A DNA stretch of 64,000 nt from Nitrososphaeria archaeon (GTDB taxonomy: Archaea; Thermoproteota; Nitrososphaeria; Nitrososphaerales; JAAOZN01): contig JARVJZ010000001.1 of NCBI GenBank assembly GCA_029775855.1, positions 288,001 to 352,000 on the forward strand, in the 5' to 3' direction. Below, piece after piece: positions 16,147 through 62,773 of this stretch. Numbering within the stretch: position 1 is the stretch's first letter; each line of letters begins with the position of its first letter. The notes under the pieces were generated by a model. That model was not told the origin of the DNA. It saw only the letters and a program-made list of their open reading frames with translations, and did no database searches. A program made the translations under genes and the position numbers.

Positions 16147-16149
16147 ACC

Positions 16150-36380: not shown

Positions 36381-38651
36381 ATGTTGACCCGCCTTCGCAT
36401 CCTAATCAAAGGTGTCGTCCAAGGTGTAGGCTTCAGACCCTTCATCTACCGAGCAGCCACAGAGAAAGGGTTGAAAGGGTATGTAAAAAACCTAGGAGAC
36501 GGCACAGTCGAAATACTCGTGGAGGGTAAAGACGGCATACTAAAATCCTTTATAGACGACATCCATCTTAGAAGACCACCTCTATCAAAGATATACGACC
36601 TTAAGATCGAGGAAGTAGATGCTGAACCTCCTCTACCAACATTCACCATCCTCGAAAGCTCAAAAACGGGCTTCGAAAGCGGCTCCATAATACCAGCAGA
36701 CGTCTCAATCTGCAACAACTGTCTACAAGAACTCTACAACCCAAACGACAGACGCTACAGATACTTCTTCATAACCTGCACAGACTGCGGACCAAGGTTC
36801 ACAGCCATAGAAGAAATGCCATATGACAGACCAAACACAACGATGGCAGAATTCCCTATGTGCAAAGAATGCAGAAGAGAATACACAGACCCCTTAAACA
36901 GAAGATTCCACGCCCAAACGATAGCTTGCAGCATCTGTGGACCAAAAGTCTTCCTAGCAGATAAAAGAGGCGAAATTATAGACTGCAGAGATCCGATAGA
37001 AGAAGCAGCCAAGCTAATAGACGAAGAAATGATCGTTGCAGTCAAAGGAAACGGCGGCTTCCACCTTGCAGTAGCAACCACCAACCCAACACCTATCTTA
37101 AGGTTGAGAAGAAGCAAACACAGAGCCCAAAAACCCTTCGCTATAATGGCTAAGAGCATAGAAGTAATAAAGACATTCGCAGAGGTCTCAAAGAAGGAAG
37201 AAGAGCTTCTACTCTCACACATAAAACCCATCGTGCTACTGAAAAAGAGCAGCAACTACTACCTCGCTGAAGAAATCGCCCCAGGCTTACACAACATCGG
37301 CACCATGCTACCATATACAGCCCTACACTCCCTCCTACTCAACGCAACAAAAGAGCCAGCCCTCATAATGACGAGCGCCAACCCCTCTGGAGAACCCATA
37401 ATCATCGACAACAAGGAAGCCATCACGAGACTCAACAGCGAAGTAGACTACTTCCTACTCCACAACAGAAAGATCGCACATAGATGCGACGACTCAGTAG
37501 TCAAGTTCATCGACGATAAACCATCCCTAATCCGAAGATCCAGAGGCTATGCACCAGAACCCGTTGAGCTGAAATTCCAACCAAAAGAATCAGTCCTTGG
37601 ACTAGGCGGAGAGCTTAACGTCACTTCGTGCATAAACGTAGCACACAGAGCATACCTAACCCAACACATAGGCGACATAGAGCACCACAACACCTACCTA
37701 TTCCTAAAAGATGCAATCAAACACCTAACAAGGCTCATAAGGGCGAAAATAAGCAAAGTCGCATGTGACCTACACCCAGCATACCTAACCACAAAGCTGG
37801 CTGAAGAAATGGTGCAAGAGCAAAACCTCCAACTCATAAAAGTGCAGCACCACCATGCACACATAACCTCAGTTATGGCTGAATATGGATTAGACGAAGC
37901 AATCGGAATCTCAGTAGACGGAGCGGGCTACGGAGCAGACGGAACCATCTGGGGCGGTGAAGTGCTCTACTGCACATACAACCAATACAGACGCCTAGCC
38001 CACCTCCAACTACATCAACTTCCAGGAGGAGATCTTGCCACAAAGTACCCTATCAGAGTAGCAGCCGCTATACTCTCACACTCAAACCGCCACAAAGAAT
38101 GGCTAAGCTCCGTAGCACACAAACTACCATACGGAGAAAAAGAAGCCGAAGTCATACTAAAGATGATTGAACAAAAACGCAACCCTAAAACCTCAAGCTG
38201 TGGTAGGGTACTAGACGCCATCTCAGCAATACTTGGAATATGCTATGAGCGTACATACGAAGGGGAACCAGCCATGAAGCTTGAAGCAGCAGCCCAAAAT
38301 GGGGAAGACGTGTTAAAAGTAGCACCAGTCATAAAAGGCAACATATTAGAGACCTCAATAATAGTAGAGCAGATACTTGACAACCTAAAAAGATACCACA
38401 TAAAAGACCTAGCATACTCTGCAGAAGAATATCTAGCCAAAGGCCTAGCAGAATTAGCCATAAACCAAGCAGAAGAGCTCAAAGTGAAGAGCATAGCCCT
38501 CTCAGGCGGCGTAGCATACAACCAACACATAACAACCACCATCAGAAACCTAGTTAAAGGAGCTCAACGTATATTTTATACGAACATGCTCGTTCCACCA
38601 GGGGATGGAGGCATATCACTTGGGCAAGTAGCCGCTGCCTGCTACATTTAA
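36381..38651 (+). CDS. hypF: Hydrogenase maturation carbamoyltransferase HypF
   Basis: GVVQGVGFRPF, zinc fingers, KGNGGFHL, QHHHAH, PPGDGGISLGQ; start set at ATG 36381 because the ORF-track extension overlaps the array end. Confidence 0.97.
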   Translation: MLTRLRILIKGVVQGVGFRPFIYRAATEKGLKGYVKNLGDGTVEILVEGKDGILKSFIDDIHLRRPPLSKIYDLKIEEVDAEPPLPTFTILESSKTGFESGSIIPADVSICNNCLQELYNPNDRRYRYFFITCTDCGPRFTAIEEMPYDRPNTTMAEFPMCKECRREYTDPLNRRFHAQTIACSICGPKVFLADKRGEIIDCRDPIEEAAKLIDEEMIVAVKGNGGFHLAVATTNPTPILRLRRSKHRAQKPFAIMAKSIEVIKTFAEVSKKEEELLLSHIKPIVLLKKSSNYYLAEEIAPGLHNIGTMLPYTALHSLLLNATKEPALIMTSANPSGEPIIIDNKEAITRLNSEVDYFLLHNRKIAHRCDDSVVKFIDDKPSLIRRSRGYAPEPVELKFQPKESVLGLGGELNVTSCINVAHRAYLTQHIGDIEHHNTYLFLKDAIKHLTRLIRAKISKVACDLHPAYLTTKLAEEMVQEQNLQLIKVQHHHAHITSVMAEYGLDEAIGISVDGAGYGADGTIWGGEVLYCTYNQYRRLAHLQLHQLPGGDLATKYPIRVAAAILSHSNRHKEWLSSVAHKLPYGEKEAEVILKMIEQKRNPKTSSCGRVLDAISAILGICYERTYEGEPAMKLEAAAQNGEDVLKVAPVIKGNILETSIIVEQILDNLKRYHIKDLAYSAEEYLAKGLAELAINQAEELKVKSIALSGGVAYNQHITTTIRNLVKGAQRIFYTNMLVPPGDGGISLGQVAAACYI

Positions 38652-38668
38652 CATATAGGTGAATCGAA

Positions 38669-38905
38669 ATGTGTTTAGCTGTTCCAGGCTTGGTGTTAAG
38701 CAAGGAAGGTACACATGCTAAAGTAGATTTTGGAGGGGGTATAATTAGAGAGGTTAACATCTCTCTTGTTGATGTTAAGGTTGGGCAGTATGTGATCGTG
38801 CACGCCGGCTTTGCGATTCAAGTCATGGATGAGGATGAAGCGAAAGAAACGCTCGAATTATGGCGGCAAGTGTTTAACCTAGATGAAGAGGAGCAGAGCG
38901 TATGA
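38669..38905 (+). CDS. hypC: Hydrogenase chaperone HypC
   Basis: MCLAVPG, YVIVHAGFAI. Confidence 0.97.
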   Translation: MCLAVPGLVLSKEGTHAKVDFGGGIIREVNISLVDVKVGQYVIVHAGFAIQVMDEDEAKETLELWRQVFNLDEEEQSV

Positions 38906-40008
38906 CCTTCAAATTATCAGATCAACATACAGCCAAACATATCTTAAAAAAGATTAGAGAACTTAACCTAAACCTAAGGATCATGCATGTCTGCGGCACA
39001 CACCAAGACACCTTAGTCAAACATGGGTTAGACACCCTTCTTCAAGAATGTAATGTCGAAATGAGACAAGGACCTGGCTGCCCAGTCTGTGTAACACCTC
39101 CAAGAGAGTTCGAGGAAGCCAAAATCTTAGCTAAAGAAGGATGTGTAATAGCGGTATATGGCGATGTTATAAGGGTTCCAGTGGAAGGGGGTTCATTAGC
39201 AGACCTTAAAGCAGAAGGATACGACATACGCATCGTCTATGGCGCAGAAGACGCTGTTAAAATCGCTAAAAAAACACATAAACCTGTTGTCTTCATGGCA
39301 ATAGGATTCGAAACTACCGCGCCAAGCACAGCTTCAGTATTGCTTAATGAGCCGCCTGAAAACTTTTATGTGCTATCATGCCACCGCTATGTTCCACCAG
39401 CCTTAGATGCTCTGCTTGGAATGGGTGAATTGAAGATCGATGGGTTAATAGATCCTGGGCATGTAAGCGCGATTATAGGTCTTAAACCTTATGAATACCT
39501 CTCGGAGAGGTATCATCTCCCTCAAGTAGTTTCAGGGTTTGAGCCCCTTGATATGTTGGTTGCCGTGTTGATGATAGCGCTTCAGATAAAAAAAGGTGAA
39601 GCTAGGGTTGAAAACGAGTACAAGCGTGTAGTAAAGTATGAAGGAAACATTAAGGCTCTGAAGATCTTAAATGAAGTCTTCCAGCCTTCAGATGCTGTCT
39701 GGAGGGGCTTAGGTCTCATAAAGGATTCTGGTATGAAGATTAGAGGAGTATTCGAAGACCACGATGCGAGGCAAGTCTTTGAAGACAGGCTTAAGGTGCT
39801 TGACTCTATTGAATTCAAAGAGCCTTTTGGATGTAGGTGCAGCGAGGTTATACGGGGTCTACTTTACCCACAGGAATGTGTTTTATTCGGTAAGGTGTGC
39901 ACACCAACCAGACCCATTGGACCTTGTATGGTTTCGGTTGAGGGTTCGTGTAATATTGAATACAAATATGGTAGGTTGAATGTTAAGTTGTCTTCTAACA
40001 GATCCTAG
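38902..40008 (+). CDS. hypD: Hydrogenase maturation protein HypD
   Basis: VCGTH, GPGCPVCVTP, GFETTAP, PGHVS, GPCMVSVEGSC. Confidence 0.97.
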   Translation: MTFKLSDQHTAKHILKKIRELNLNLRIMHVCGTHQDTLVKHGLDTLLQECNVEMRQGPGCPVCVTPPREFEEAKILAKEGCVIAVYGDVIRVPVEGGSLADLKAEGYDIRIVYGAEDAVKIAKKTHKPVVFMAIGFETTAPSTASVLLNEPPENFYVLSCHRYVPPALDALLGMGELKIDGLIDPGHVSAIIGLKPYEYLSERYHLPQVVSGFEPLDMLVAVLMIALQIKKGEARVENEYKRVVKYEGNIKALKILNEVFQPSDAVWRGLGLIKDSGMKIRGVFEDHDARQVFEDRLKVLDSIEFKEPFGCRCSEVIRGLLYPQECVLFGKVCTPTRPIGPCMVSVEGSCNIEYKYGRLNVKLSSNRS

Positions 40009-41047
40009 GGACTGGGTCTCCTATAGGTGGTGGGATTATTCTCTTACCTCCTACTTTTGTCTTTAAGACTACTTCTTTGAAGTTGCTTGTTGCTTCACCT
40101 ATTATCTCAGCTTCCCTTCCTTCTGGTGTTTCACGGAGTGCTGCTAAGACTTCTTCAGCCTTCTCTTTAACCACGCCTACTATCATCTTACCCTCATTCC
40201 CAACATCATAGGGGTCTATTCCGAGCATCTCACAAGCAGCCCTAACATTCTCATGCACAGGAATCTTCTCCTCCTCTACAAGAATGCCTACTGCTGATTT
40301 TTCACTCCACTCGTTTAAAGCATTTGATAATCCACCCCTCGTTGGATCTTTTAACGCGACAACACCCCCAGTCTCAAGGATCTTCTCTACTGCTTTGTTC
40401 AACGGCTTGACATCAGAGCATACATTTCCTTCGAAGCCGTAGCCTTCTCTGCTGGAAAGAACAGCTATACCATGGTCTCCAACCGCACCAGATAATATGA
40501 TCTTATCTCCAGCTCTAATATTCGAATCTAAGAGCCACCTTGCTTCAAAGGCTCTGTATCTTTTTACAACCTCGATATTTCTATCTAAAAATCTGCTGCG
40601 CCGACCTATCCCTGATGTGTTTATGACGAACTTATCTAACGCGCCTTTTTCAACCACTTTTGTGTCTCCCGCAACAATAAAGACACCAGCCTCTCTGCAA
40701 GTCTCTGCCATACTCTCAACGATCTTGGTCAAGTCATCTAACGGGAAGCCTTCTTCCAAGATGAAGCCAGCTGTCAAAGCTAGGGGTTCACCTCCAACCA
40801 TACATATATCGTTGACTGTTCCTGATACAGCAAGCCTACCTATGTCACCTCCTGGAAAGAAGAGCGGCTTGACGGTGTGGGAATCTGTCTTCAAGACTAT
40901 GTTATCAACAACAGCAGCATCATCAAGGGCTTCAAGAGGCACTTCAACTCCGCTTCCACCTAGCCTACTCACTATGAGCCTCTTGATGAGGCTCTGCATA
41001 ACCGAGCCTCCAGCCCCATGCGCCATAGTCACAAGCTTACTTGCCAT
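39995..41047 (-). CDS. hypE: Hydrogenase maturation protein HypE
   Basis: MAHGAGG, FFPGGDIG, GDTKVV, DPTRGG, C-terminal PRIC. Confidence 0.97.
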   Translation of the reverse strand: MASKLVTMAHGAGGSVMQSLIKRLIVSRLGGSGVEVPLEALDDAAVVDNIVLKTDSHTVKPLFFPGGDIGRLAVSGTVNDICMVGGEPLALTAGFILEEGFPLDDLTKIVESMAETCREAGVFIVAGDTKVVEKGALDKFVINTSGIGRRSRFLDRNIEVVKRYRAFEARWLLDSNIRAGDKIILSGAVGDHGIAVLSSREGYGFEGNVCSDVKPLNKAVEKILETGGVVALKDPTRGGLSNALNEWSEKSAVGILVEEEKIPVHENVRAACEMLGIDPYDVGNEGKMIVGVVKEKAEEVLAALRETPEGREAEIIGEATSNFKEVVLKTKVGGKRIIPPPIGDPVPRIC

Positions 41048-41166
41048 CCTCTCACTGCCCTATCATGATATGGGTCGCAGATATAGAACTTAACTGTTTA
41101 GTAATCTATGAAGCTGGTTTACCGAGCTTCCCACATTATAATATTCTGAGGAATAGCAATTGTAGA

Positions 41167-41541
41167 CTATGGGATTACCATCTTTATGGCTTTGATTCTG
41201 CACTCAAGGCCTTCTTTGATCTTAACCGGCTCACCGCATTTAGGGCAAGATAGGGATACCGCCCACAATCCCAGTTCATCATCGCTTACTTTGCCTATTG
41301 AGCCTATGTAGCCGCAGCTGCTGCACTCTACTTTGGGTTCTTGCTCTGTTATCACAAGTCTCGACCCTTTTAGGATGTTATCTCTTTTTAGGATGTTGTA
41401 GCAGAAGGTTAGTTGTTCTTTGCTGAGGTGTGTGAGTCTACCTACTATAAGATGCACGCTTTTAACTTGCTTAGCACCTCTTTTTTCAGCCTCTCTTATA
41501 GCGACTTTCACTATTTCACTAGCTACAGATAGTTCGTGCAC
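41167..41541 (-). CDS. hypA: Nickel metallochaperone HypA
   Basis: MHELSVA, two CxxC motifs. Confidence 0.96.
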   Translation of the reverse strand: MHELSVASEIVKVAIREAEKRGAKQVKSVHLIVGRLTHLSKEQLTFCYNILKRDNILKGSRLVITEQEPKVECSSCGYIGSIGKVSDDELGLWAVSLSCPKCGEPVKIKEGLECRIKAIKMVIP

Positions 41542-41553
41542 GGTCTTCTCCCT

Positions 41554-42261
41554 TTAAAGCCCTATTGCTTTAACTACATCTTCCACTCCTTCGCCAGTTT
41601 TACAGCTTGTCTTTACAACTTTAAGGCTAGGCTTTATGGTGTGGATGTCTTTTTCTATCTTAATAGGGTCTACATTCATTATTGGTGCTAAGTCGATTTT
41701 GTTTATGATCGCAAGGTCGGCTTCAGCGAATATGTATGGGTGTTTGACGACCATATGCTCACCTTCACTCACGCTTATCACTACTATCCGCTTTTCACAC
41801 CCTAAGGGGAAGTCTGCGGGGCATATGAGGTTCCCAACATTCTCAATAAAGAGCACATCTATGTTGCTTAAATCAAGTCTTGTTAGAGCTTTTTTAACTA
41901 AGTTTGCATCTAGATGGCATTCTTTTCCAGTGTTTATCTGAAGAACCTTAGCGCCGTGTTTACCTATACGCTCAGCATCTATCGTTGTCGCAGCATCCCC
42001 TCCAATCGCAGCTACCCTATACTTACCCTTAAGCATCTGCACAAGCCTCTCGATAAGCGATGTCTTACCAGAACCAACAGAGCCCATTATGTCGAATGAC
42101 CTAATGCCATACTTAAGTAAGGTTTTAGCGTTTTCATCGGCTAACTTCCGATTCGCTTCAAGAATGTCTTCCTCTAACTCGACATCGAAGATCTCATCTG
42201 GCTCAGGCTTAATCACAGCATCTACATCCAAGCAGCATTCCTCCAACTGGAAGCGACACAT
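41554..42261 (-). CDS. hypB: Nickel incorporation NTPase HypB
   Basis: GSVGSGKT, ECHLDA, ENVGNLICPA, NKID; true start may be TTG 42231. Confidence 0.96.
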   Translation of the reverse strand: MCRFQLEECCLDVDAVIKPEPDEIFDVELEEDILEANRKLADENAKTLLKYGIRSFDIMGSVGSGKTSLIERLVQMLKGKYRVAAIGGDAATTIDAERIGKHGAKVLQINTGKECHLDANLVKKALTRLDLSNIDVLFIENVGNLICPADFPLGCEKRIVVISVSEGEHMVVKHPYIFAEADLAIINKIDLAPIMNVDPIKIEKDIHTIKPSLKVVKTSCKTGEGVEDVVKAIGL

Positions 42262-42318
42262 AAAATATTGTTAAACTAAGATATATCTGCTTCCCATTTT
42301 CTTTACAACTCTGCATAT

Positions 42319-42795
42319 CTAAGGATCTAAAGCCAGTCTAGCAGCTAAAGCTGCAGCCTTTGGAATAGATTCCACAACCTCATTAGACATCTCGGTACAA
42401 ACCTCGTTAGGTAAATAGCCAACGATGCATGCTACTATGTAGATCTTTACACCCATAGCCTCTAACTGAGCAAGCATATCTCTGTTAGGAAAAGTATGTG
42501 ATGGTGATACGCTCCTATGGTCAGGCACATCTTGTACACCAAGAACTTTTACCTCTCCGATTGTTCCCTTCTGCTGTAAGGCATCGACTAATATGAGTTT
42601 AGTTGGTTTCTCTTCTTCCGAGAGTATGTTAAGCAGAACTTGTGAGATGCCTAAACCAACATCTAAAACCTCAACTTCTTCCTCGCTTACAAGATGTTCT
42701 TTAATTATATACTCGACAACCTTAGGTCCAAAGCCATCATCTCCTCTGAATATATTCCCACAACCTAAGATTAATGGCTTATTTCTAATACGCAT
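42319..42795 (-). CDS. Hydrogenase maturation protease (HycI/HybD family)
   Basis: GCGNIFRGDDGFG, LVDAL, PSH. Confidence 0.93.
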   Translation of the reverse strand: MRIRNKPLILGCGNIFRGDDGFGPKVVEYIIKEHLVSEEEVEVLDVGLGISQVLLNILSEEEKPTKLILVDALQQKGTIGEVKVLGVQDVPDHRSVSPSHTFPNRDMLAQLEAMGVKIYIVACIVGYLPNEVCTEMSNEVVESIPKAAALAARLALDP

Positions 42796-43019: not shown

Positions 43020-43523
43020 ATGCAGACTTATGCCCAAACCGATATTCTCGACGCTGTAAGAGGTGTCATCGGTGATCATAGACCAGAGGCTTGCTACCAA
43101 TGTATGAAGTGCACAAGCGGCTGCCCAGCTGCTAAAGTGAGTGAATACAAGCCTCATATGATGGTGATACTGACTAAAGCGGGGTTAGCTGAAGAGGTTA
43201 TGAAAAGCGGCATAATATGGGCTTGCTCTATGTGTCTAAAGTGTAAAGAATATTGTCCACAAGATGTTGCACCCTTCGATGTTGTCACAGCCTTAAAGAA
43301 TGTAGCTATCTCTAAAGGCTATCGCCCACCTGAGATGCTTGTAGGGATGTCAAATAATGTTCTAGACTATGGTTGCATAATGGATAAGCCTATGACAATA
43401 ACCACAACAGACTTCGAAGAAGTATCAAGAAAGAGCTTAGGGCTTCCCGATATTGTGCATCCTAAAGATATGGAGCAGTTTAAGAAAACAGTTGCCAGAT
43501 TCGGATTCAGGAGGTTGAGCTAG
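43020..43523 (+). CDS. hdrC: Heterodisulfide reductase subunit C
   Basis: CYQCMKCTSGCP and CSMCLKCKEYCP; first gene of hdrCBA; GGAGGTG RBS at 43003-43009. Confidence 0.92.
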   Translation: MQTYAQTDILDAVRGVIGDHRPEACYQCMKCTSGCPAAKVSEYKPHMMVILTKAGLAEEVMKSGIIWACSMCLKCKEYCPQDVAPFDVVTALKNVAISKGYRPPEMLVGMSNNVLDYGCIMDKPMTITTTDFEEVSRKSLGLPDIVHPKDMEQFKKTVARFGFRRLS

Positions 43524-44399: not shown

Positions 44400-44400
44400 A

Positions 44401-54836: not shown

Positions 54837-55232
54837 GTGATGCGTATGGCTAAAAAAAGCAGAATCGAGGAGGTTGTGGGTCAAGTAGTAGTTTCCCCAG
54901 ATGAGATATGGGCTAAGGTAGAGGGGAATCCTTCTGCACTGACCGTCAAGGTAGGTATAACTGATAAGCTCCAGAGGGAGCTAGGGAACATAGAGTTCGT
55001 GAGAGTGCTGCCTAAAGGAAGATATGTTGGCAGAGGATACCCATTTGGCTCCATCGAAGCTGGAAGGCGCGTCTTCCTACTAAGAGCACCTATATCAGGC
55101 TCAATACAAGAAGTAAATGAAGAACTTAGGGCTGACCCAACACTTCTAAACAAAGATCCAACTGGAAGAGGATGGGTAGCTGTCTTAAGACCTATAAACC
55201 TCGAGGAAGAGTTAGAGCATCTAAGTAAGTAG
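54837..55232 (+). CDS. Glycine cleavage H-like protein lacking the lipoyl lysine
   Basis: VGITD, GSIEAGRRV (Arg in place of Lys), APISG, LLNKDPTGRGW. Confidence 0.85.
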   Translation: MMRMAKKSRIEEVVGQVVVSPDEIWAKVEGNPSALTVKVGITDKLQRELGNIEFVRVLPKGRYVGRGYPFGSIEAGRRVFLLRAPISGSIQEVNEELRADPTLLNKDPTGRGWVAVLRPINLEEELEHLSK

Positions 55233-56780: not shown

Positions 56781-57965
56781 ATGAGTCTATTTAAACTCCC
56801 AACACTTCAAAAAACGGACATCTTTGCTTGTGCTCAATGCGGCTACTGCGTCAAAAAATGCCCTGTTTATAACGCTCTAAATTGGGAATCCTACTCCCCT
56901 AGAGGCAGACTCTACCTGCTTAAACAGCTACAAGATGAAAACAAATCCTTTTTGGGCAAGTTAATCATAAGAGACAAAATCGACGTAAAAGAAGTCGCTC
57001 AAAGGATCTACGATTGTGCTATATGTGGTAGATGCGAAGAAGCTTGCCACCTAGAGCTTAATCTACCATCCTTATGGGCTAAGGCAAGAGAAGCTTTATT
57101 CTCAATAGGTGCAGCACCCCAACTCCTAACACAAGTCGAAACCACTATACTCAGTAGAAAGAACGTCTTTGGAATGGATGCTGAATCCAGAGGAGACTGG
57201 GTCATATATACTGGTGTAGATGCACCTACCAAGAAGGAAGCTGAAATAGCATACTTCGTCGGATGTGTAACATCATACTCTGGCAGAGTGCAGAGCGTAG
57301 CACAAGCAATCGCCAGCTTATTAAATCACGTAGGCGCAAATTGGACTCTACTAGACGGTGAATGGTGCTGTGGACACCCGCTCTACGTAAGCGGCGCAGT
57401 CTCAAAGTATAAGGAGTTGGCTGAACATAACGTTAAAGCAATCGAATCTACTGGCGCTAAGATTGTAGTAACGGGATGCCCAGGCTGTAGACTCGCACTT
57501 GCTGAGGAGTATCCAGCTATCCTAGGGTATGAGCCCGACTTTGAGGTGCTACACTTTACACAGCTATTGGATCGGTGGTTATCTGAAGGACGGCTTAAGA
57601 TTGAGATGGGTGAAGAGCTCATTACCTATCATGATCCATGTGAACTTGCTAGACTTGGTGGTGTAATCGAGCAGCCTAGAAGAGTAATATCATCGTTAAC
57701 CAGTAGGTTTGTGGAGCCTCTTGAAAGAGGTAGAGATGGTGTATGCTGCGGCTCAGGAGGCATGCTAAAAGCCACTAACCCTACGCTCTCTGCTACACTC
57801 GCTGAATCAAGACTAAACTCTCTTGTGAACACAGGCTCCAGTTTGATACTCTCAGCATGCCCGACTTGTGATCAATCTCTCGCTGAAGCTGCGGTTAAGG
57901 CTCAAAGGAGTGTAAGAGTTGTGGATTTGACTCAGCTAATAGCTGAGCGTCTAGGGTTGATGTAA
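56781..57965 (+). CDS. HdrD/GlcF-like Fe-S/CCG oxidoreductase (copy 3)
   Basis: CAQCGYCVKKCP, SPRGR, CAICGRCEEAC, WCCG..CPGC, YHDPC..CCG..CPTC; abuts the FAD oxidoreductase. Confidence 0.92.
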   Translation: MSLFKLPTLQKTDIFACAQCGYCVKKCPVYNALNWESYSPRGRLYLLKQLQDENKSFLGKLIIRDKIDVKEVAQRIYDCAICGRCEEACHLELNLPSLWAKAREALFSIGAAPQLLTQVETTILSRKNVFGMDAESRGDWVIYTGVDAPTKKEAEIAYFVGCVTSYSGRVQSVAQAIASLLNHVGANWTLLDGEWCCGHPLYVSGAVSKYKELAEHNVKAIESTGAKIVVTGCPGCRLALAEEYPAILGYEPDFEVLHFTQLLDRWLSEGRLKIEMGEELITYHDPCELARLGGVIEQPRRVISSLTSRFVEPLERGRDGVCCGSGGMLKATNPTLSATLAESRLNSLVNTGSSLILSACPTCDQSLAEAAVKAQRSVRVVDLTQLIAERLGLM

Positions 57966-58019: not shown

Positions 58020-59129
58020 ATGGTAGGTTTGGAGTCTCCAGAATATGTTAGGACGAGCTTGGCTGGCGCTATGACGCTAGGATTTGTTCCCGGTAGATTT
58101 TATAGAGACGCAAAGTCTTACTGCCTTAACCTCCTTTTGACTTATAGGGATGGCTGTATGGGGAGATGCGCTTATTGCGGTCTCTCGCGTGCACGCCTAC
58201 CAGATACTCCGTGGTCGGAGCGGAGCTTTATTAGAGTTGACTGGCCTATAGTTAGACTCGACGATGTTATTGAAAGATTATCTAAAGGTTCCTGTGCAGA
58301 TGTTGAGCGTATTTGCGTTTCTATGGTTACTAATGGTAGAGCTAGAATTGACACAATAACCGTAGTTGAGAGAATTAGAAGAGTCTTCGAGCAGATCTCT
58401 GTGTTGATAACACCAACAATAGTCGATGAAGATTGGTTGAAGGAAACCCATGAGGCTGGTGCTGATATGGTTGGTGTTGCTATAGATGCTGCTACACCCA
58501 TGCTCTTCGATTTGTTAAGGGGAAAGAGTGTAGGTGGGCCACATAGGTGGGAGCGTTACTGGAGTATTTTGAAGAGCGCTGTAAAGGTCTTCGGTAGATA
58601 CAACGCTGGAGTGCACTTAATTGTTGGTTTAGGGGAAAGCGAATACGATATGGTTAATGCGATTCAACAAGCATATGATCTAGGTGCTTTGACACATCTT
58701 TTCTCATTCTTCCCAGAGGAGAAGTCGCCAATGGAGTTCTACTCACAGCCTCCAATAGGGCAGTATAGGCGGATACAGCTTGCAAGGTATCTGATAAACA
58801 AGGGTCTTAGCAGAGCAGAACATATGAAGTTTGATAGTAGAGGTAGGATAATTGAGTTTGGCGTGGATGAATCAACCCTAGAAGAGAGTATAACCTGTGG
58901 CGCTCCCTTCATGACATCTGGGTGCAGAAGTAAAAACAGAGAAGGTGCTTGCAATCGACCTTACTCTAACTCCACACCATATCAAGCGTTAATAGGTGAA
59001 ATAAGAAACTACCCCTTCCAACCAACGGCTGAAGATGTTAAGATCATAAGGCTTCAGCTAAAAGACTATTCTGATATCCCGGTTAAACGGTGGGTAGAGG
59101 CTCCTGAGCTGGTGGATGAAGTGGAGTAA
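58020..59129 (+). CDS. lipS2: Radical SAM lipoyl synthase subunit, LipS2-type
   Basis: CMGRCAYC radical SAM motif; C-terminal TSGC...CNRP; context of ligase and H-protein; LipS1/LipS2 naming follows the Thermococcus motifs as I recall them. Confidence 0.8.
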   Translation: MVGLESPEYVRTSLAGAMTLGFVPGRFYRDAKSYCLNLLLTYRDGCMGRCAYCGLSRARLPDTPWSERSFIRVDWPIVRLDDVIERLSKGSCADVERICVSMVTNGRARIDTITVVERIRRVFEQISVLITPTIVDEDWLKETHEAGADMVGVAIDAATPMLFDLLRGKSVGGPHRWERYWSILKSAVKVFGRYNAGVHLIVGLGESEYDMVNAIQQAYDLGALTHLFSFFPEEKSPMEFYSQPPIGQYRRIQLARYLINKGLSRAEHMKFDSRGRIIEFGVDESTLEESITCGAPFMTSGCRSKNREGACNRPYSNSTPYQALIGEIRNYPFQPTAEDVKIIRLQLKDYSDIPVKRWVEAPELVDEVE

Positions 59130-60148
59130 TGGGGATAATAGACACCTGCCTACAGCAGCCTTTTAATACATTAGCAGAGTTATTCGACCGAGCGGAAGAA
59201 ATATTAAAGCAGAACTTTGCAAACAACATTTACCTGTATGCGCCGGGTATGGTGAATTATGAGACAAGCTACTATAAGAGCAGCCCCTTCTCTTTCCCAG
59301 CCATCTCAGTTACTGGTAGGCGATGCTTCCTAAACTGCGACCACTGTGGGGGTAAGTTGCTTGAGAGCATGTTTTCAGCCGAATCGCCAGATAAGCTCTA
59401 CACTTTGATGAAGCGGCTCGTTCAGAAGGGTGCTAAAGGTTTTCTGCTAAGCGGCGGCTGCAACTCACAGGGTTATGTTCCACTTGAGCAGTTTTTGCCT
59501 GTTGTAGCGAAGATTAAGCGTGAAGTATCTATTGAAGTGGTTGTTCACTGCGGCTTAGCTCCTTCACATGTAGCCGATGCGCTTGCAGAATCTGGTGTAG
59601 ACGCAGTTCTACTTGATATAGTAGGTTCAGACGCAACAATAAAAGAAGTCTGCCACCTCGATAAATGTGTTGACTCGTTTAACCACCTTCTGAAGACACT
59701 CTCTGAGCGCTCTTTGCCTGTCGTGCCACATATAGTCGTTGGTATGCATTATGGTATGATGCTTGGAGAAAGATATGCTCTAGCGCTTATCTCAAAATAT
59801 AGACCAGCTGCTGTTGTTATAGTAGCCCTTATGCCACTAGAGGGAACGAAGATGATGCACATAGCACCACCCTCACCACAAGACATCGCTCGAGTTATGC
59901 TTGCAGCTAGGCTCACTATGCCTAACATACCAATAGTGCTGGGCTGCGCTAGGCCTAGAGGAAATCATAGAGTGGCGACAGATGCTTTAGCTGTAAGGTG
60001 TGGTGTCAACGGCATAACCTATCCAAGCGAATCCCTATTCCATATTTGTACGCGTCGTGGAATCCACCTAGCCTTCTCAGAAAAGTGCTGCGGCTTAATA
60101 TGGAGAGATATCTCTAGTTCCATAAATAGGGCTGAGTTCAGCATATGA
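59129..60148 (+). CDS. lipS1: Radical SAM lipoyl synthase subunit, LipS1-type
   Basis: SVTGRRCFLNCDHC; LLSGG; GCARP and terminal CC motifs. Confidence 0.8.
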   Translation: MGIIDTCLQQPFNTLAELFDRAEEILKQNFANNIYLYAPGMVNYETSYYKSSPFSFPAISVTGRRCFLNCDHCGGKLLESMFSAESPDKLYTLMKRLVQKGAKGFLLSGGCNSQGYVPLEQFLPVVAKIKREVSIEVVVHCGLAPSHVADALAESGVDAVLLDIVGSDATIKEVCHLDKCVDSFNHLLKTLSERSLPVVPHIVVGMHYGMMLGERYALALISKYRPAAVVIVALMPLEGTKMMHIAPPSPQDIARVMLAARLTMPNIPIVLGCARPRGNHRVATDALAVRCGVNGITYPSESLFHICTRRGIHLAFSEKCCGLIWRDISSSINRAEFSI

Positions 60149-61713
60149 AACCTACTTGGAGGCTTTTAGACACTGGCTTAAGATCAGCGGCTGAAAATAT
60201 GGCCCTAGACGACATTATACTTGAATGTAGATCTAGGAATCTGGTTCCAGACACCTTAAGGTTCCTCCGGTTTAAGCCCCCAGCTGTCCTTGTGGGCTAC
60301 CACCAAGATGTGCTCCATGAAGTCAGATTAGAGTATGTAAAGAGCCGTGGAATCGATGTTAATAGGAGAATCACCGGCGGCGGAGCCATCTACTTTGATG
60401 AAAACACAATAGGCTGGGAGATTATAGCTTCAAAAGCTTCCTTAGACGAATCAATTAAGATAGAAGGTCTCTTCGAAGTAATGTGTAGAGCACCCATAAT
60501 CGCTTTAAGCAAACTTGGTCTAGAAGCCAGATTCAGACCTAGAAACGACATCGAAGTCAAAGGTAAAAAGATCTCAGGAACAGGAGGGACTGAGCGTGAG
60601 GGTGCTTTCCTCTTTCAAGGCACACTTCTAACCGACTTCGACATAGAATCCATGATCAAATCTCTTAAAATACCCATAGTCAAGCTGAAAGATAAAGAGA
60701 TAGCATCAGCAAAGCAGAGAGTAACTTGTATAAAATGGGAACTAGGCGATACACCATCGTTTGAGGAATTGAAGAGCCTATTAGTTGAAAGCTTCTCAGA
60801 GGCTCTCGATGTAAACTTTAAGGAAGGTGATTTAAGCGAATGTGAACAAAATCTTCTACAGGAGAAGCTCCCCTACTTTCAGTCTGAGGAGTGGATTTAC
60901 CTAGACCGCCGAGCGCCAGAAGAGGCTGGTGTGGTAAGAGCTATAAATAAGGCTAAAGGAGGGCTAGTTGAAGTCTCGTTAACCATAGATCGAAGAGCGA
61001 AGATCATTAAATCCATAATTATAACAGGGGACTTCTTCGCTACACCCTCAAAAGGAGTGCTAGATCTAGAAGCTGCCTTAAAATTTACAAGCTATGAAAG
61101 AGAAAGCCTTGAGAAGACAATCACCTCAGCATTCAAAGAGAAGAATATAGATATAGTGGGTGTAGAGCCCCAATTCATCGCCAACCTAATCACACAAGCA
61201 GTGAACAAGACTAGTCTAGAAGCCTTCGGAATAACTCTAGACGAAGCAAACTACATACACACCATCAACCTAGACTCAACACCTCTGCTAGACTACAAAT
61301 GGAGATATCTTCTACTCCCCTACTGCTCAAAGCTAGTAAGCTGCGCATACCGTAAAGAAGAAGGCTGTGTGCAGTGCGGATTATGCAGCATAGGAGAAGC
61401 ATACAAGCTAGGTCAAGAAGCGGGTTTAATCGTAAAAACGATACAAAATTTTGAACATCTTATGGAGGTTCTAGAAGAGGTTAAGCGCTCAAATTCAGCC
61501 TACATAGGATGCTGCTGCGAAGCCTTTTACACAAAACATTTAGATGAACTGCGTGATATAGGAGTTCCAGCTCTTCTACTGGATATTGATGATAAAACGT
61601 GCTACGACTTAGGTAAGGATGATAAAGCGTATATAGGAACATTCGAGGGTCAGACGACACTAAAACTACCCATACTCACAAAGATCCTAAACACGCTAGC
61701 AAGTGTAGCCTAA
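60145..61713 (+). CDS. Lipoate/octanoate-protein ligase (LplA + LplB-like domains) fused to a Cys-rich DUF116-like domain
   Basis: NMALDD, RRITGGGAIY, NDIEVKGKKISG, ITGDFF; C-terminal LPYC..C..CVQCGLC..GCCCE. Confidence 0.88.
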   Translation: MKPTWRLLDTGLRSAAENMALDDIILECRSRNLVPDTLRFLRFKPPAVLVGYHQDVLHEVRLEYVKSRGIDVNRRITGGGAIYFDENTIGWEIIASKASLDESIKIEGLFEVMCRAPIIALSKLGLEARFRPRNDIEVKGKKISGTGGTEREGAFLFQGTLLTDFDIESMIKSLKIPIVKLKDKEIASAKQRVTCIKWELGDTPSFEELKSLLVESFSEALDVNFKEGDLSECEQNLLQEKLPYFQSEEWIYLDRRAPEEAGVVRAINKAKGGLVEVSLTIDRRAKIIKSIIITGDFFATPSKGVLDLEAALKFTSYERESLEKTITSAFKEKNIDIVGVEPQFIANLITQAVNKTSLEAFGITLDEANYIHTINLDSTPLLDYKWRYLLLPYCSKLVSCAYRKEEGCVQCGLCSIGEAYKLGQEAGLIVKTIQNFEHLMEVLEEVKRSNSAYIGCCCEAFYTKHLDELRDIGVPALLLDIDDKTCYDLGKDDKAYIGTFEGQTTLKLPILTKILNTLASVA

Positions 61714-61714
61714 G

Positions 61715-62773
61715 TTGAAAGATAAATACGATGTTCTGATAGTCGGCGCTGGACCAGCAGGCTCAGCAGCATCTATAAAATGTGTTGAAGAAGGTCTTAA
61801 CACGTTGCTGGTAGAGAAGGGCGGGTTAGGTAGGCATAAACCTTGTGCAGGCGTGCTTCCACCAGTAGCTTCCTATGTGTTAGATGAATTAGGTTTACAT
61901 CTCTCTGATAACGTTCTAAGCGACCCTCCTAAGCTTAAGGTGTTCTATGTCCCACCAAGCGGTAGAGCAAACGGTGGGGAATTAAGAAACTACTTTGTTT
62001 TCAATTTGGATAGAGACCTCTTTGACAGATGGCTTGCTGAGAAAGCGGTTGAAAGGGGTGTTAATCTGCAGACCAACACCAACTTCATAACCCTTGAACA
62101 AGGCGCACAAGTAGAAGCGATCTTGGAAACGAAGGGCAATATACAAAAAGTAGAAGTAGAGTATATAGTGGGAGCAGATGGAGCCAACTCAAAGGTGAGA
62201 AGATGCTTAAAAGACGCGCCAACACAAAAACTACTTACAGTCATTCAGGAGTCTTGGGAAGGCTATGGAGAATTTGAAGACTCTTTCTACACCATCCTAA
62301 ACCGCAAAATAACACCAACATACGGCTACTTGTTGAAGAAGAGAGGCACATTATTAATAGGCACAGGCGCCAAAGACTCTAAACTATGTGTTCAGAGTCT
62401 AGAAGCGTTAAAAAGTTGGCTCAAGAGCATGTTTAACTTCAAGCCAAATAAGATGATTAAAAGAGAAGTAGGATTCCTGCCCTATGGTGAATGCTTCATT
62501 GGATGTGGTAATGTTATGCTTATCGGGGATGCAGCTGGTCTATGCAACAGATTTTCAGGTGAAGGGATTAGATTCGCTTTAGAAAGTGGCTTAACCGTGG
62601 CTGAATCAATCAAGGATGCAAAGAGTGGTTGTCAAGCCTTAGAAATATATAAGATGCGTGCTCAACCTATTCTAGATTTTGTAGAGAAGACTGCAAACAT
62701 ACTTGAGGAAAAGGATGATAAATGGCGAGAAGAATTCGTCTTAACGGAGCTGAGACGCTCTAACCTCTGGTAA
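61715..62773 (+). CDS. Geranylgeranyl-reductase-family FAD oxidoreductase (LipT-like by context)
   Basis: VGAGPAG, KPCAG, VGADGANS, GDAAG..FSGEGI; last gene of the lipS2-lipS1-ligase operon. Confidence 0.8.
   Translation: MKDKYDVLIVGAGPAGSAASIKCVEEGLNTLLVEKGGLGRHKPCAGVLPPVASYVLDELGLHLSDNVLSDPPKLKVFYVPPSGRANGGELRNYFVFNLDRDLFDRWLAEKAVERGVNLQTNTNFITLEQGAQVEAILETKGNIQKVEVEYIVGADGANSKVRRCLKDAPTQKLLTVIQESWEGYGEFEDSFYTILNRKITPTYGYLLKKRGTLLIGTGAKDSKLCVQSLEALKSWLKSMFNFKPNKMIKREVGFLPYGECFIGCGNVMLIGDAAGLCNRFSGEGIRFALESGLTVAESIKDAKSGCQALEIYKMRAQPILDFVEKTANILEEKDDKWREEFVLTELRRSNLW

What the first reader, a model, noticed from the sequence alone, without database searches (positions are those of the whole stretch)
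36381..62773. Candidate novel system: bifurcating Mvh-Hdr hydrogenase coupled to a protein-bound lipoate disulfide cycle
Seen: one ~26 kb cluster holds all six hyp genes plus protease, hdrCBA-mvhDGA, three HdrD-like CCG proteins, an HdrE-like membrane protein, an H-protein with the LbpA-type ETGKWVG lipoylation site, OsmC and a full lipS2-lipS1-ligase-LipT-like operon. It has no gcvP/T/L, 2-oxoacid dehydrogenase, mcr, CoM/CoB synthesis, dsrC, tusA or dsrE. Established: MvhADG-HdrABC bifurcates H2 electrons to ferredoxin and CoM-S-S-CoB in methanogens; LbpA with LipS1/S2 serves the sulfur-oxidising sHdr complex; the disulfide used by Hdr in non-methanogenic archaea is largely unknown. Inference: here the lipoyl-H-protein is the disulfide acceptor of HdrB, H2 drives ferredoxin reduction, and the dihydrolipoyl carrier is re-oxidised by HdrD/HdrE-like proteins, playing the role DsrC or CoM/CoB play elsewhere.
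Basis: partly seen in the sequence, partly recalled or inferred. Interest (0 to 1): 0.92.

Follow-up and report, generated by a model that had tools for sequence, protein, structure and literature searches.

The report
Lipoyl carrier protein wired to Hdr enzymes
A hot-spring archaeon keeps a special lipoic-acid-carrying protein, with its own maturation genes, among a hydrogen-oxidising Mvh-Hdr complex and a membrane-bound Hdr-type enzyme, which suggests that protein-bound lipoate is the long-sought disulfide substrate of Hdr enzymes in organisms that make no methane.

Summary
Window 36381-62773 carries hypFCD/EAB plus protease, hdrCBA-mvhDGA, a membrane protein with an HdrD-like partner, a lipoylatable H-type protein (H_a), OsmC, two more CCG proteins and lipS2-lipS1-ligase-lipT-like.

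The genome does have gcvT, gcvPAB, an LpdA-like gene, a canonical acidic GcvH, LipA and a second ligase elsewhere. H_a with LipS1/S2 is therefore a second, dedicated lipoyl system.

H_a-type proteins are Hdr-linked, not glycine-cleavage-linked:
- 22 of 26 loci with an HdrD1 orthologue carry one.
- 55 of 80 H_a-anchored metagenome loci hold Hdr-type genes and 0 hold glycine-cleavage genes.
- 0 of 15 canonical GcvH loci hold Hdr genes.

The membrane protein and HdrD1 are fused in at least 11 loci. A co-fold of HdrD1 with H_a scored 0.62 against a best control of 0.22.

I did not test the HdrB-lipoyl step or the direction of electron flow; both are inferred. Verdict: a new variant of the LbpA-Hdr kind, hydrogenase- and quinone-linked. 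Interest is high and the mechanism is unproven.

The parts
36381..42795 (.). [NiFe]-hydrogenase maturation set: hypF, hypC, hypD (+); hypE, hypA, hypB and a HycI-type protease (-)
   Evidence: Pfam (HypF domains, HypD 441 bits, AIRS/AIRS_C, HypA, cobW/HypB, HycI). HypC was read from the translation.
43020..46383 (+). hdrC-hdrB-hdrA: full-length, methanogen-type (bifurcating-type) heterodisulfide reductase
   Evidence: Pfam. HdrA aligns 3-655 with residues 8-651 of 8rvu_a (776 bits), whereas sHdrA 6tjr_A covers only 326-571. HdrB aligns over its full length with 8rvu_b (161.7 bits), and both CCG motifs are present.
46389..49307 (+). mvhD-mvhG-mvhA: F420-non-reducing [NiFe] hydrogenase
   Evidence: Pfam (FlpD 183 bits, Oxidored_q6, NiFeSe_Hases). 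The best solved relative of MvhA is 5odc_F MvhA, 437.8 bits. Gaps within hdrC..mvhA run from -1 to 7 nt.
49408..50238 (+). Membrane anchor 'Memb' (about 5-6 TM helices) of the HdrD1 enzyme
   Evidence: No Pfam, NCBIfam or PDB sequence hit. It is fused to HdrD1 in one ORF of 625-695 aa in at least 11 loci. AF2 model: pLDDT 75.3. Best fold match is M. smegmatis EtfD 9ojn, TMq 0.58, then NarI, TMq 0.42.
50235..51458 (+). HdrD1: two [4Fe-4S] motifs plus two intact CCG domains; membrane-bound Hdr-type thiol/disulfide oxidoreductase
   Evidence: Pfam. Ten invariant CCG-domain cysteines in 15 sequences. 11 of 11 fused orthologues keep both CCG motifs. Best solved relative is EtfD 9ojn_A, 140.9 bits. 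Co-fold with H_a: 0.62 against a best control of 0.22.
51489..51920 (-). H_a: LbpA-like lipoate-binding H-type protein (lipoyl lysine K70 in ETGKWVG)
   Evidence: GCV_H 135.6 bits. It fails the gcvH equivalog cut-off, 106.9 against 115.85. pI 7.86 against 4.89 for the canonical GcvH. Motif shared with Hdr-linked H proteins. Neighbour counts; tree.
52019..52462 (+). OsmC-family peroxiredoxin, divergent from H_a; possible lipoyl-dependent peroxidase
   Evidence: Pfam OsmC. Two candidate catalytic cysteines were read by eye. An OsmC gene lies in the H_a/HdrD1 loci L009, L010, L012, L013, L029, L091, L092 and L096.
52463..53653 (-). CCG2: third HdrD-like protein (two CCG domains; N-terminal Cys motifs not called by Pfam)
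   Evidence: Pfam CCG 87 bits. NCBIfam best hits are TfrB, LdhH and GlpC, all below cut-off.
53640..54773 (-). AbrB/SpoVT-PhoU domain regulator
   Evidence: Pfam. Conserved next to H_b and GlcD/GlcF in L010, L012, L013, L091, L092, L096, L097, L099 and L100.
54837..55232 (+). H_b: H-type paralogue without the lipoyl lysine (arginine in its place)
   Evidence: GCV_H 85.9 bits. Alignment: R at the lysine column in every H_b-type row except the G008 copy (L088). Clade of 11 rows with support 100.
55338..57965 (+). GlcD-like FAD flavoprotein plus GlcF/HdrD-like CCG iron-sulfur subunit
   Evidence: Pfam. NCBIfam glcD and TfrB/LdhH/GlcF hits are below cut-off.
58020..62773 (+). lipS2-lipS1-lipoate:protein ligase (LplA-B catalytic domain + C-terminal domain + DUF116)-lipT-like flavoprotein
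   Evidence: Pfam. LipS1 (NF053742) 233.2 bits, above the 230 cut-off. LipS2 (NF053743) 209.1 bits, below the 270 cut-off. GG-reductase family 147.8 bits. LipS1 and LipS2 are single-copy in the genome.

Best explanation
The cluster encodes a redox module built around protein-bound lipoate. H_a is a lipoylatable, LbpA-like H-type protein. It is matured by its own lipS2-lipS1-ligase-lipT-like operon and is separate from the glycine-cleavage GcvH, which has LipA and a second ligase elsewhere.

The dithiolane/dithiol of H_a is the substrate of the Hdr-type (CCG, non-cubane cluster) enzymes encoded around it. For the membrane-anchored HdrD1/Memb enzyme this link is supported here by synteny, gene fusion and a co-fold. 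For the HdrB subunit of MvhADG-HdrABC it is inferred.

Proposed flow:
1. H2 is oxidised by MvhAG.
2. Electrons pass via MvhD to the HdrA flavin and bifurcate to ferredoxin and, through HdrC/HdrB, to lipoyl-H_a.
3. Dihydrolipoyl-H_a is re-oxidised by HdrD1, which passes electrons through its two cubane clusters and the membrane subunit to the quinone pool.
4. OsmC may be a second outlet, reducing peroxides. The GlcD/GlcF pair may be a second inlet, from a 2-hydroxyacid.

Shown here: gene content, family assignments, conserved neighbourhoods, the fusion, the co-fold pass, and presence in RNA libraries. Inferred: every electron-transfer step and its direction.
For: 1. H_a is not the glycine-cleavage H protein.
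- It fails the gcvH equivalog cut-off and has pI 7.86 against 4.89.
- The canonical type (ESVKA site) lies elsewhere. In relatives that type sits beside gcvT/gcvP in 9 of 15 loci and beside Hdr-type genes in 0 of 15.
- The genome also holds LipA (384 bits, cut-off 310) and a second ligase.

2. H_a-type proteins are Hdr-linked.
- Of 26 genome loci with a full-length HdrD1 relative at 39% identity or more, 22 hold an H_a-type gene, 17 a ligase, 13 HdrA, 8 mvhA/G, 0 glycine-cleavage genes and 1 TusA/DsrE. For more distant HdrD paralogues the counts are 3 of 22 and 3 of 29.
- Of 80 H_a-anchored metagenome loci, 55 hold Hdr-type genes, 49 a ligase and 0 glycine-cleavage genes. Among loci of 12 kb or more, 25 of 30 hold Hdr-type genes.
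- hdrC-hdrB-H_a are adjacent and co-directional in L097-L100.

3. Phyletic pattern. In 31 genomes of the order, an H_a orthologue, an HdrD1 orthologue and a long HdrA were found together in G000-G003 and G008, and none of the three in the other 26.

4. HdrD1 looks like a catalytic disulfide enzyme tied to the membrane.
- Memb and HdrD1 form one ORF in at least 11 loci.
- HdrD1 keeps both CCG double cysteines. The electron-wire homologue EtfD has lost one (PMC13083937, passages).

5. Co-fold of HdrD1 with H_a.
- ipSAE 0.62 (runs 0.62, 0.65, 0.59); best of 3 controls 0.22. That mark was reached by 58 of 80 solved complexes and 2 of 110 mismatched pairs.
- The runs agree in at least 95% of their contacts, and partner pLDDT is at least 89.
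- The interface on H_a is residues 46-74, around K70. On HdrD1 it lies at residues 141-154, 182-188, 349 and 384, in or near the CCG-domain region.

6. A quinone context exists: a UbiE-type methyltransferase, two Rieske proteins and cytochrome b in the window, and a Nuo-like antiporter set elsewhere.

7. No known Hdr substrate system was found: no McrA, ComA, DsrC or NIR_SIR match.

8. Contigs of two metatranscriptome runs from one study hold hdrC to mvhA, H_a and OsmC at 99% identity or more.
Against: - The HdrB-H_a step was never tested; the single complex job went to HdrD1.
- mvh is not a constant partner. G008 has the H_a/HdrD1 module but gave no match to the MvhA query at E <= 1e-20, and only 2 of 80 H_a-anchored loci hold mvhA/G.
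- H_a has no cysteines, so it lacks the two cysteines typical of bacterial LbpA (Cao 2018, section 6).
- An LpdA-like gene exists and could re-oxidise H_a with NAD+ instead of HdrD1.
- From recalled midpoint potentials, lipoate (about -290 mV) gives a bifurcating Hdr much less pull than CoM-S-S-CoB (about -140 mV).
- The membrane subunit has only one invariant histidine, so a haem-based path to quinone is uncertain.
- Gene labels in other loci come from tblastn best hits to this window's proteins, not from independent annotation.
- Related genomes are not independent samples.
- The RNA evidence consists of assembled contigs. It shows presence in RNA libraries, not transcript level or strand.
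Confidence: 0.5

Rival explanations
1. Variant of the sulfur-oxidising sHdr-LbpA pathway. H_a works as LbpA does in sulfur oxidisers: Hdr-like proteins oxidise protein-bound sulfane sulfur, delivered by TusA/DsrE proteins encoded elsewhere. The hydrogenase is merely a neighbour.
For: - H_a shares the E-[ST]-G-K-W-V-G site and a basic pI with H proteins that sit in tusA-dsrE-ligase-hdr clusters. 25 of 80 H_a-anchored loci hold TusA/DsrE.
- The genome has two tusA-dsrE pairs.
- One genome of the same order (G027, locus L177) has a classical-looking sHdr cluster.
- In one Actinomycetes locus (L047) the module lies near genes that looked to me like sat and aprBA. This was judged by eye and not tested.
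Against: - HdrA is the 660-aa full-length type. sHdrA covers only residues 326-571.
- There is no shdrC1B1AHC2B2 arrangement and no sulfur transferase within the 26 kb.
- Only 1 of 26 HdrD1-orthologue loci holds TusA/DsrE.
- In the tree, H_a lies outside the 73-row sulfurtransferase-linked clade. It falls on the 24-row side of a branch with support 96 that holds no sulfurtransferase-linked row.
- No heme-copper oxidase match was found.
Confidence: 0.12
2. Antioxidant system. The primary role of H_a is to reduce OsmC, as a lipoyl-dependent peroxidase. The Hdr-type enzymes, and H2 via Mvh-Hdr, keep H_a reduced in an oxygen-sensitive anaerobe.
For: - OsmC is divergently transcribed from H_a with a 98-nt gap and has two candidate catalytic cysteines (read by eye).
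- An OsmC gene recurs in the archaeal H_a/HdrD1 loci L009, L010, L012, L013, L029, L091, L092 and L096. One also lies next to the canonical GcvH of G008 (L090).
- Lipoyl-dependent Ohr/OsmC peroxidases are in print (Cussiol 2010; Nyvltova 2016). I saw only their titles in reference lists.
- RNA-library contigs cover both H_a and OsmC.
Against: - OsmC was found in only 2 of 80 H_a-anchored metagenome loci, and it was not among the genes mapped in the Chloroflexota and Actinomycetes loci.
- A membrane-anchored HdrD1 and a bifurcating Hdr are elaborate for a detoxification role.
- This reading does not exclude the main one: OsmC may simply be one outlet.
Confidence: 0.15
3. Coincidental neighbourhood. 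H_a and the lip genes are general lipoate metabolism. Mvh-Hdr and the HdrD-like proteins use some other, unknown thiol/disulfide or serve as plain electron wires (EtfD/EMO-like, GlcF-like).
For: - The genome has a full glycine cleavage set elsewhere.
- HdrD1's best solved relative is the electron wire EtfD.
- The GlcD/GlcF pair looks like an ordinary 2-hydroxyacid dehydrogenase.
- Two ETF pairs exist in the genome.
Against: - A canonical GcvH, LipA and a second ligase already serve glycine cleavage.
- The H_a-HdrD1 neighbourhood recurs in Chloroflexota, Actinomycetes, Syntrophomonadaceae and several archaeal lineages: 22 of 26 loci.
- 0 of 80 H_a-anchored loci hold glycine-cleavage genes.
- HdrD1 keeps the catalytic-type double cysteines that EtfD lacks.
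- The co-fold passed its controls.
- No ETF gene lies in the window.
Confidence: 0.08

Closest known systems
sHdr-LbpA sulfur-oxidation system (Cao et al. 2018, PMC6067878; Tanabe et al. 2023, PMC10332631)
   Same: - A GcvH-like lipoate-binding protein is encoded among hdr-like genes.
- It has a dedicated ligase-LipS1-LipS2-LipT-type maturation set in a genome that also has a canonical lipoylation route.
- The lipoylation-site motif and the basic pI are shared.
   Different: - HdrA here is the full-length bifurcating type, followed by mvhDGA.
- There is no sHdrH and no C1B1A-C2B2 layout.
- No TusA, DsrE or rhodanese lies in the cluster.
- H_a has no cysteines and lies outside the sulfurtransferase-linked clade.
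- The constant partner is a membrane-anchored HdrD-type enzyme.
MvhADG-HdrABC of hydrogenotrophic methanogens (solved: 5odc, 8rvu)
   Same: - All six subunits are present in one tight operon.
- HdrA, HdrB and MvhA each align over their full length with the solved methanogen proteins.
   Different: No mcrA and no comA were found, so CoM-S-S-CoB is not the expected substrate. The proposed acceptor is a protein-bound dithiolane.
HdrDE / DsrMK / mycobacterial EtfD (9ojn; PMC13083937)
   Same: The architecture is a membrane subunit plus two cubane-cluster motifs plus two CCG domains, and it is fused in many orthologues as in EtfD. The predicted fold of the membrane part is closest to EtfD, then NarI.
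   Different: - It is not an electron wire like EtfD, because both CCG motifs keep the double cysteine.
- No ETF gene is adjacent.
- Only one histidine is invariant in the membrane part, so the haem content is uncertain.
- All NCBIfam hits (TfrB, DsrK, HmcF) are far below their cut-offs.
GcvH next to HdrA2B2C2/Ehe in Culexarchaeia (Kohtz et al. 2022, PMC9723716)
   Same: A published speculation, seen as passages, that a GcvH-bound lipoyl group could be the unknown disulfide for HdrB in archaea that lack CoM and CoB.
   Different: - That case involves a group 4 membrane hydrogenase and a GcvH named as such.
- It gives no dedicated maturation genes, no HdrD/membrane partner, no comparative counts and no binding model.
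- This genome also has such a pair, hdrA2-C2-B2-gcvH on contig C3.

Membership tests
LbpA (Hdr-associated lipoate-binding protein) | Conserved lipoyl-lysine in a GcvH fold | tested here: met
   K70 aligns with the lipoyl lysine of solved GcvH proteins. GCV_H 135.6 bits.
LbpA (Hdr-associated lipoate-binding protein) | [quoted passage not shown] | tested here: not met
   H_a has 0 cysteines.
LbpA (Hdr-associated lipoate-binding protein) | Less acidic, more basic surface than GcvH (Kumpel et al. 2026 preprint, passages) | tested here: met
   pI 7.86 for H_a and 9.05 for H_b, against 4.89 and 4.99 for the two GcvH-type proteins. Only whole-protein pI was computed, not surface maps.
LbpA (Hdr-associated lipoate-binding protein) | Encoded in or beside hdr-like genes together with ligase and LipS1/S2 genes | tested here: met
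LbpA (Hdr-associated lipoate-binding protein) | Placement within the LbpA1/LbpA2 clades | tested here: not met
   FastTree of 176 H proteins: H_a is on the 24-row side of a branch with support 96, apart from the 73-row sulfurtransferase-linked clade. No named LbpA1 or LbpA2 reference sequences were available, so those clades are inferred from gene context.
sHdr system (type I or II) | Short sHdrA (about 350 aa) in an shdrC1B1AHC2B2 or shdrC1B1AHB3-etfAB-emo layout | tested here: not met
   HdrA is 660 aa and matches methanogen HdrA over its full length. 6tjr_A covers only residues 326-571. The gene order is hdrCBA-mvhDGA. ETF genes occur only elsewhere in the genome.
sHdr system (type I or II) | Accompanying TusA, DsrE or rhodanese sulfur transferases | tested here: not met
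   None in the 26 kb. TusA (3 matches) and DsrE (2 matches) lie on other contigs.
MvhADG-HdrABC bifurcating complex | All six subunits present, with full-length HdrA, two CCG motifs in HdrB and the NiFe large-subunit motifs | tested here: met
   Motifs were read from the translations.
MvhADG-HdrABC bifurcating complex | CoM-S-S-CoB as substrate (requires Mcr and CoM/CoB synthesis) | tested here: not met
   No MCR_alpha match and no ComA match in a 98.4% complete genome. CoB synthesis genes were not searched.
HdrDE-type membrane heterodisulfide reductase | HdrD with two cubane-cluster motifs and two CCG domains | tested here: met
   Pfam. Ten invariant CCG-domain cysteines.
HdrDE-type membrane heterodisulfide reductase | HdrE b-type cytochrome anchor with conserved histidine ligands | tested here: inconclusive
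   The fold is closest to EtfD and then NarI. Only H258 is invariant, and H96 is present in the archaeal rows only. The H96-H258 spacing of 162 residues resembles the 163 between the EtfD haem ligands.
EtfD/EMO electron-wire oxidoreductase | Non-catalytic CCG clusters (second cysteine of one CCG motif replaced) and an ETF partner | tested here: not met
   Both CCG motifs are intact in 15 of 15 unfused sequences and 11 of 11 fused orthologues. No ETF gene lies in the window.
Glycine cleavage H protein (GcvH) | Passes the gcvH equivalog model and lies with, or serves, gcvT/gcvP | tested here: not met
   TIGR00527 score 106.9, below the 115.85 cut-off. 0 of 80 H_a-anchored loci hold gcvT/P, against 9 of 15 canonical GcvH loci.
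sLpl(AB)-LipS1/LipS2 lipoate assembly | LipS1, LipS2 and a lipoate:protein ligase with a C-terminal LplB-like domain, often with LipT | tested here: met
   LipS1 233.2 bits (cut-off 230). LipS2 209.1 bits, below the 270 cut-off but the best hit. The ligase has LplA-B_cat plus Lip_prot_lig_C domains. The flavoprotein falls in the GG-reductase family, and its identity as LipT was not tested.

The most novel reading that the evidence does not exclude
Protein-bound lipoate on a dedicated LbpA-like carrier is the physiological 'heterodisulfide' of flavin-based electron-bifurcating Hdr complexes in non-methanogenic archaea, and by synteny in many Chloroflexota. Together with a membrane-bound HdrD-type dihydrolipoyl:quinone oxidoreductase it closes an energy-conserving loop in which H2 yields reduced ferredoxin plus quinol. 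A lysine-less paralogue (H_b) acts as a regulator or scaffold.
Probability: 0.3. Interest if true: 0.9.

Novelty: new variant of a known kind. Interest (0 to 1): 0.78.

Why it matters
What HdrABC-type enzymes reduce in organisms that have neither CoM/CoB nor DsrC is a long-standing open question. This window offers a concrete candidate that can be tested at the bench: a small lipoylated protein with its own maturation genes, one membrane-bound partner and one hydrogenase-linked partner.

If the candidate is confirmed:
- It would extend the role of lipoate beyond 2-oxoacid and glycine metabolism and sulfur oxidation, to hydrogen-driven electron bifurcation and quinone reduction.
- It would give a function to a widespread, unnamed membrane-HdrD enzyme family found in Chloroflexota, Actinomycetes, Syntrophomonadaceae and several archaeal lineages.

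Tried and rejected
Glycine cleavage as the explanation for H_a. Rejected: a canonical GcvH, LipA and a second ligase exist elsewhere, and H_a-type genes never sat with gcvT/P (0 of 80 loci).

rRNA operon as the explanation for the ORF-free 31-36 kb stretch. Rejected: Rfam found only one tRNA in the whole window, and the stretch is a CRISPR array.

Membrane protein by sequence. No Pfam hit even at E 10, no NCBIfam hit and no PDB sequence hit. Only the predicted fold gave a lead (E 4e-3, which is weak).

Literature. Searches for a described LbpA or GcvH link to Mvh-Hdr or HdrD found only the Culexarchaeia speculation. Two of these searches returned nothing. They may already include relatives of this lineage.

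RNA cover. Bins without RNA contigs in X7 and X8 (parts of hdrD1, CCG2 and the lip genes) are not evidence of silence.

Full report
OBSERVATION. The window is G000:C1:288001-352000 of a 1.507-Mb, 6-contig genome rated 98.4% complete.
- hypF, hypC, hypD (+); hypE, hypA, hypB and a HycI-type protease (-).
- A tight hdrC-hdrB-hdrA-mvhD-mvhG-mvhA operon with gaps from -1 to 7 nt.
- After a 100-nt gap, a membrane protein whose stop overlaps the start of an HdrD-like protein (HdrD1).
- A convergent H-type protein (H_a) and a divergent OsmC.
- A second HdrD-like protein (CCG2).
- Further on, lipS2-lipS1-ligase and a geranylgeranyl-reductase-family flavoprotein (LipT-like).

They are an AbrB/PhoU regulator (53640-54773, -), a second H-like gene (H_b, 54837-55232, +) whose lipoyl lysine is an arginine, a GlcD-like flavoprotein (55338-56780) that pairs with the third CCG protein, and a CRISPR array of about 79 repeats (31186-36244). 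The array ends just before hypF, which fixes the hypF start at 36381.

WHAT THE PARTS ARE. HdrA (660 aa) aligns end to end with solved methanogen HdrA (8rvu_a, 776 bits). The short sulfur-oxidiser sHdrA (6tjr_A) covers only residues 326-571. HdrB and MvhA likewise match the solved methanogen subunits over their full length. By sequence, then, this is a genuine bifurcating-type Mvh-Hdr.

HdrD1 has two cubane-cluster motifs and two CCG domains. All ten CCG-domain cysteines are invariant in 15 sequences. Its closest solved relative is mycobacterial EtfD.

The membrane protein has no family by sequence. In at least 11 loci from Actinomycetes, Chloroflexota and archaea it forms a single ORF with HdrD1. 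Its AF2 model (pLDDT 75.3) is closest to the membrane part of EtfD (TMq 0.58, E 4e-3), then NarI.

The EtfD paper (PMC13083937, passages) says EtfD's CCG clusters are non-catalytic because one CCG cysteine is replaced. HdrD1 and all 11 fused orthologues keep both double cysteines. That is the pattern of disulfide-cleaving Hdr. Only one histidine (H258) is invariant in the membrane part, so 'HdrE-like cytochrome b' is not established.

IS H_a JUST THE GLYCINE-CLEAVAGE H PROTEIN? No. The genome has four GCV_H genes:
- One on contig C2 has the canonical ESVKA site and pI 4.89. In relatives, this type lies beside gcvT/gcvP.
- One on contig C3 is GcvH-like (pI 4.99) and lies directly after a second hdrA-hdrC-hdrB set.
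- H_a has the site ETGKWVG and pI 7.86, and fails the gcvH equivalog cut-off.
- H_b has pI 9.05 and no lysine at the site.

gcvT, gcvPA/PB and an LpdA-like gene exist elsewhere. So do a canonical LipA and a second ligase. LipS1 and LipS2 occur only in the window. Two parallel lipoylation systems with two classes of acceptor is the situation described for organisms that carry LbpA (Cao 2018, section 5; Kumpel 2026 preprint, passages).

COMPARATIVE EVIDENCE. First I anchored on HdrD1 in one genome per species (79 loci; maps).
- Of 26 loci with a full-length relative at 39% identity or more, 22 hold an H_a-type gene, 17 a ligase, 13 HdrA, 8 mvhA/G, 1 TusA/DsrE and 0 glycine-cleavage genes.
- More distant HdrD paralogues hold an H gene in 3 of 22 loci (mostly GlcD-linked) and in 3 of 29 loci (those lying upstream of hdrA).
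- The record titles of these loci name Nitrososphaerales/Nitrosopumilales MAGs (87-88% identity), a Scotarchaeum MAG, Geoarchaeota, Desulfurococcales, Bathyarchaeia, Actinomycetes, Syntrophomonadaceae and many Anaerolineae/Chloroflexota.
- All aligned H proteins from these loci carry E-[ST]-G-K-[WFY] at the lipoyl site.

Second I anchored on H_a itself in metagenome contigs (patterns taken from four archaeal sequences, so the scan is biased to that form; 80 loci).
- 55 hold Hdr-type genes, 49 a ligase, 25 TusA/DsrE, 2 mvhA/G and 0 glycine-cleavage genes.
- Among loci of 12 kb or more, 25 of 30 hold Hdr-type genes.

As a control, 15 canonical-type GcvH loci from relatives hold Hdr-type genes in 0 cases and gcvT/P in 9.

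The loci with TusA/DsrE look like classical sHdr-lbpA clusters, so the site motif is shared with LbpA. In a FastTree of 176 H proteins, however, H_a and H_b fall on the 24-row side of a branch with support 96. That side holds 19 HdrD1/Memb-linked rows, 3 other Hdr-linked rows and the two own proteins, and no sulfurtransferase- or glycine-cleavage-linked row. The sulfurtransferase-linked proteins form a separate 73-row clade with support 98. These are short proteins and the deep forks are weak.

In the four closest non-genus contigs (L097-L100, 64-67% identity), hdrC-hdrB-H_a are adjacent on one strand.

Among 31 genomes of the order, an H_a orthologue, an HdrD1 orthologue and a long HdrA were found together in the genus (G000-G003) and in G008, and in none of the other 26. 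An MvhA orthologue was found only in the genus. These are effectively two lineages, not five independent samples.

BINDING MODEL. The one complex job went to HdrD1 (15-row alignment) with H_a (18-row alignment).
- The score was 0.62 (runs 0.62, 0.65, 0.59) against a best control of 0.22. That mark was reached by 58 of 80 solved complexes and 2 of 110 mismatched pairs.
- The runs share at least 95% of their contacts, and partner pLDDT is at least 89.
- The interface on H_a is the hairpin around K70 (residues 46-74). On HdrD1 it lies at residues 141-154, 182-188, 349 and 384, in or near the CCG-domain region.
- This supports binding but does not show it. I know of no solved HdrD-GcvH complex, so a pass from memory seems unlikely.

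CONTEXT.
- No McrA, ComA, DsrC, NIR_SIR, E2 or heme-copper oxidase match was found.
- A quinone-based chain is indicated by a UbiE-type methyltransferase, two Rieske proteins, cytochrome b and a molybdopterin oxidoreductase in the window itself, and by a Nuo-like antiporter set on contig C3.
- The stretch occurs in hot-spring metagenome runs. Contigs of two metatranscriptome runs from one study cover hdrC to mvhA, H_a and OsmC at 99% identity or more. This shows presence in RNA libraries only.

MECHANISM. My best reading (confidence 0.5) is that lipoyl-H_a is the dithiol/disulfide substrate of the cluster's CCG enzymes.
- The link to HdrD1/Memb rests on synteny, fusion, intact catalytic-type motifs and the co-fold.
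- The link to HdrB rests on operon neighbourhood, on adjacency in relatives, and on the lack of any other known substrate system.
- The proposed loop runs from H2 through MvhAGD to the HdrA flavin, then to ferredoxin and, via HdrCB, to lipoyl-H_a. Dihydrolipoyl-H_a then passes electrons through HdrD1/Memb to quinone.
- The direction through HdrD1 follows only from recalled midpoint potentials (lipoate about -290 mV, menaquinone about -70 mV).
- OsmC is a plausible second outlet. GlcD/GlcF is a plausible second inlet.
- The LpdA-like protein is a plausible alternative re-oxidant.

RIVALS. Three rivals were weighed and are listed with their evidence: a sulfur-oxidising sHdr variant (0.12), a mainly antioxidant H_a-OsmC system (0.15), and a coincidental neighbourhood (0.08). 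The antioxidant reading is compatible with the main one.

NOVELTY. LbpA with sHdr is known (PMC6067878, PMC10332631). The idea that a GcvH lipoyl group might serve HdrB in archaea has been floated once, for Culexarchaeia (PMC9723716, passages). My six literature searches found no description of three things seen here:
- An LbpA-like clade without sulfur transferases.
- Its constant pairing with a membrane-anchored, catalytic-type HdrD.
- Its placement in an hdrCBA-mvhDGA neighbourhood.

I file the finding as a new variant of a known kind.

Noticed in passing
window 31186-36244: Large CRISPR array: about 79 copies of a 24-nt repeat, period about 64 nt. One spacer-repeat unit is duplicated exactly (33992-34082 and 34365-34455). 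The array ends about 140 nt before hypF. A DEAD/Cas3-like helicase with an MrfA Zn-binding domain lies just upstream (28464-31034, -).
   Followed up: partly
G000:C3:148986-153288 (outside the window): A second Hdr-H pairing: hdrA (794 aa, with an MvhD-like domain fused at its C-terminus), hdrC, hdrB and a GcvH-like acidic H protein (ESIKT site). A hydrogenase maturation protease lies on the other strand. The arrangement is conserved in genus-mates (L192), and a similar neighbourhood occurs in L133.
   Followed up: partly
window 54837-55232 (+): H_b is an H-type paralogue with arginine at the lipoyl-lysine position, so it cannot be lipoylated at that site. The arginine is conserved in every H_b-type row except the G008 copy. 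The gene always lies beside the AbrB/PhoU regulator and the GlcD/GlcF pair. Its role is unknown; it could be a regulator, a decoy or a scaffold.
   Followed up: partly
window 60145-61713 (+): The lipoate:protein ligase carries a C-terminal DUF116 domain (residues 381-488). Full-length matches in G008 and in the Actinomycetes loci suggest the fusion is conserved there. Chloroflexota matches cover only about 0.6 of the protein.
   Followed up: no
window 9337-19624: Respiratory genes upstream of the cluster: a UbiE-type methyltransferase, a Rieske protein, a thioredoxin-reductase-like flavoprotein, a molybdopterin oxidoreductase (860 aa) with a Fer4_11 subunit, and a second Rieske protein followed by cytochrome b. 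The substrate of the molybdoenzyme is unknown.
   Followed up: no
L047:8793-15000 (Actinomycetes MAG): Downstream of the fused Memb-HdrD1 and of HdrB- and HdrC-like genes lie ORFs that looked to me like adenylate kinase, sat, aprB and aprA, followed by HdrA/Qmo-like genes. This was judged by eye only. If correct, it points to a link between this module and APS/sulfite metabolism in that lineage.
   Followed up: no
G000:C2:311309-313173 (outside the window): A second [NiFe] hydrogenase, with small and large subunits 34-36% identical to MvhG and MvhA. The single hyp gene set in the window presumably serves both hydrogenases.
   Followed up: no
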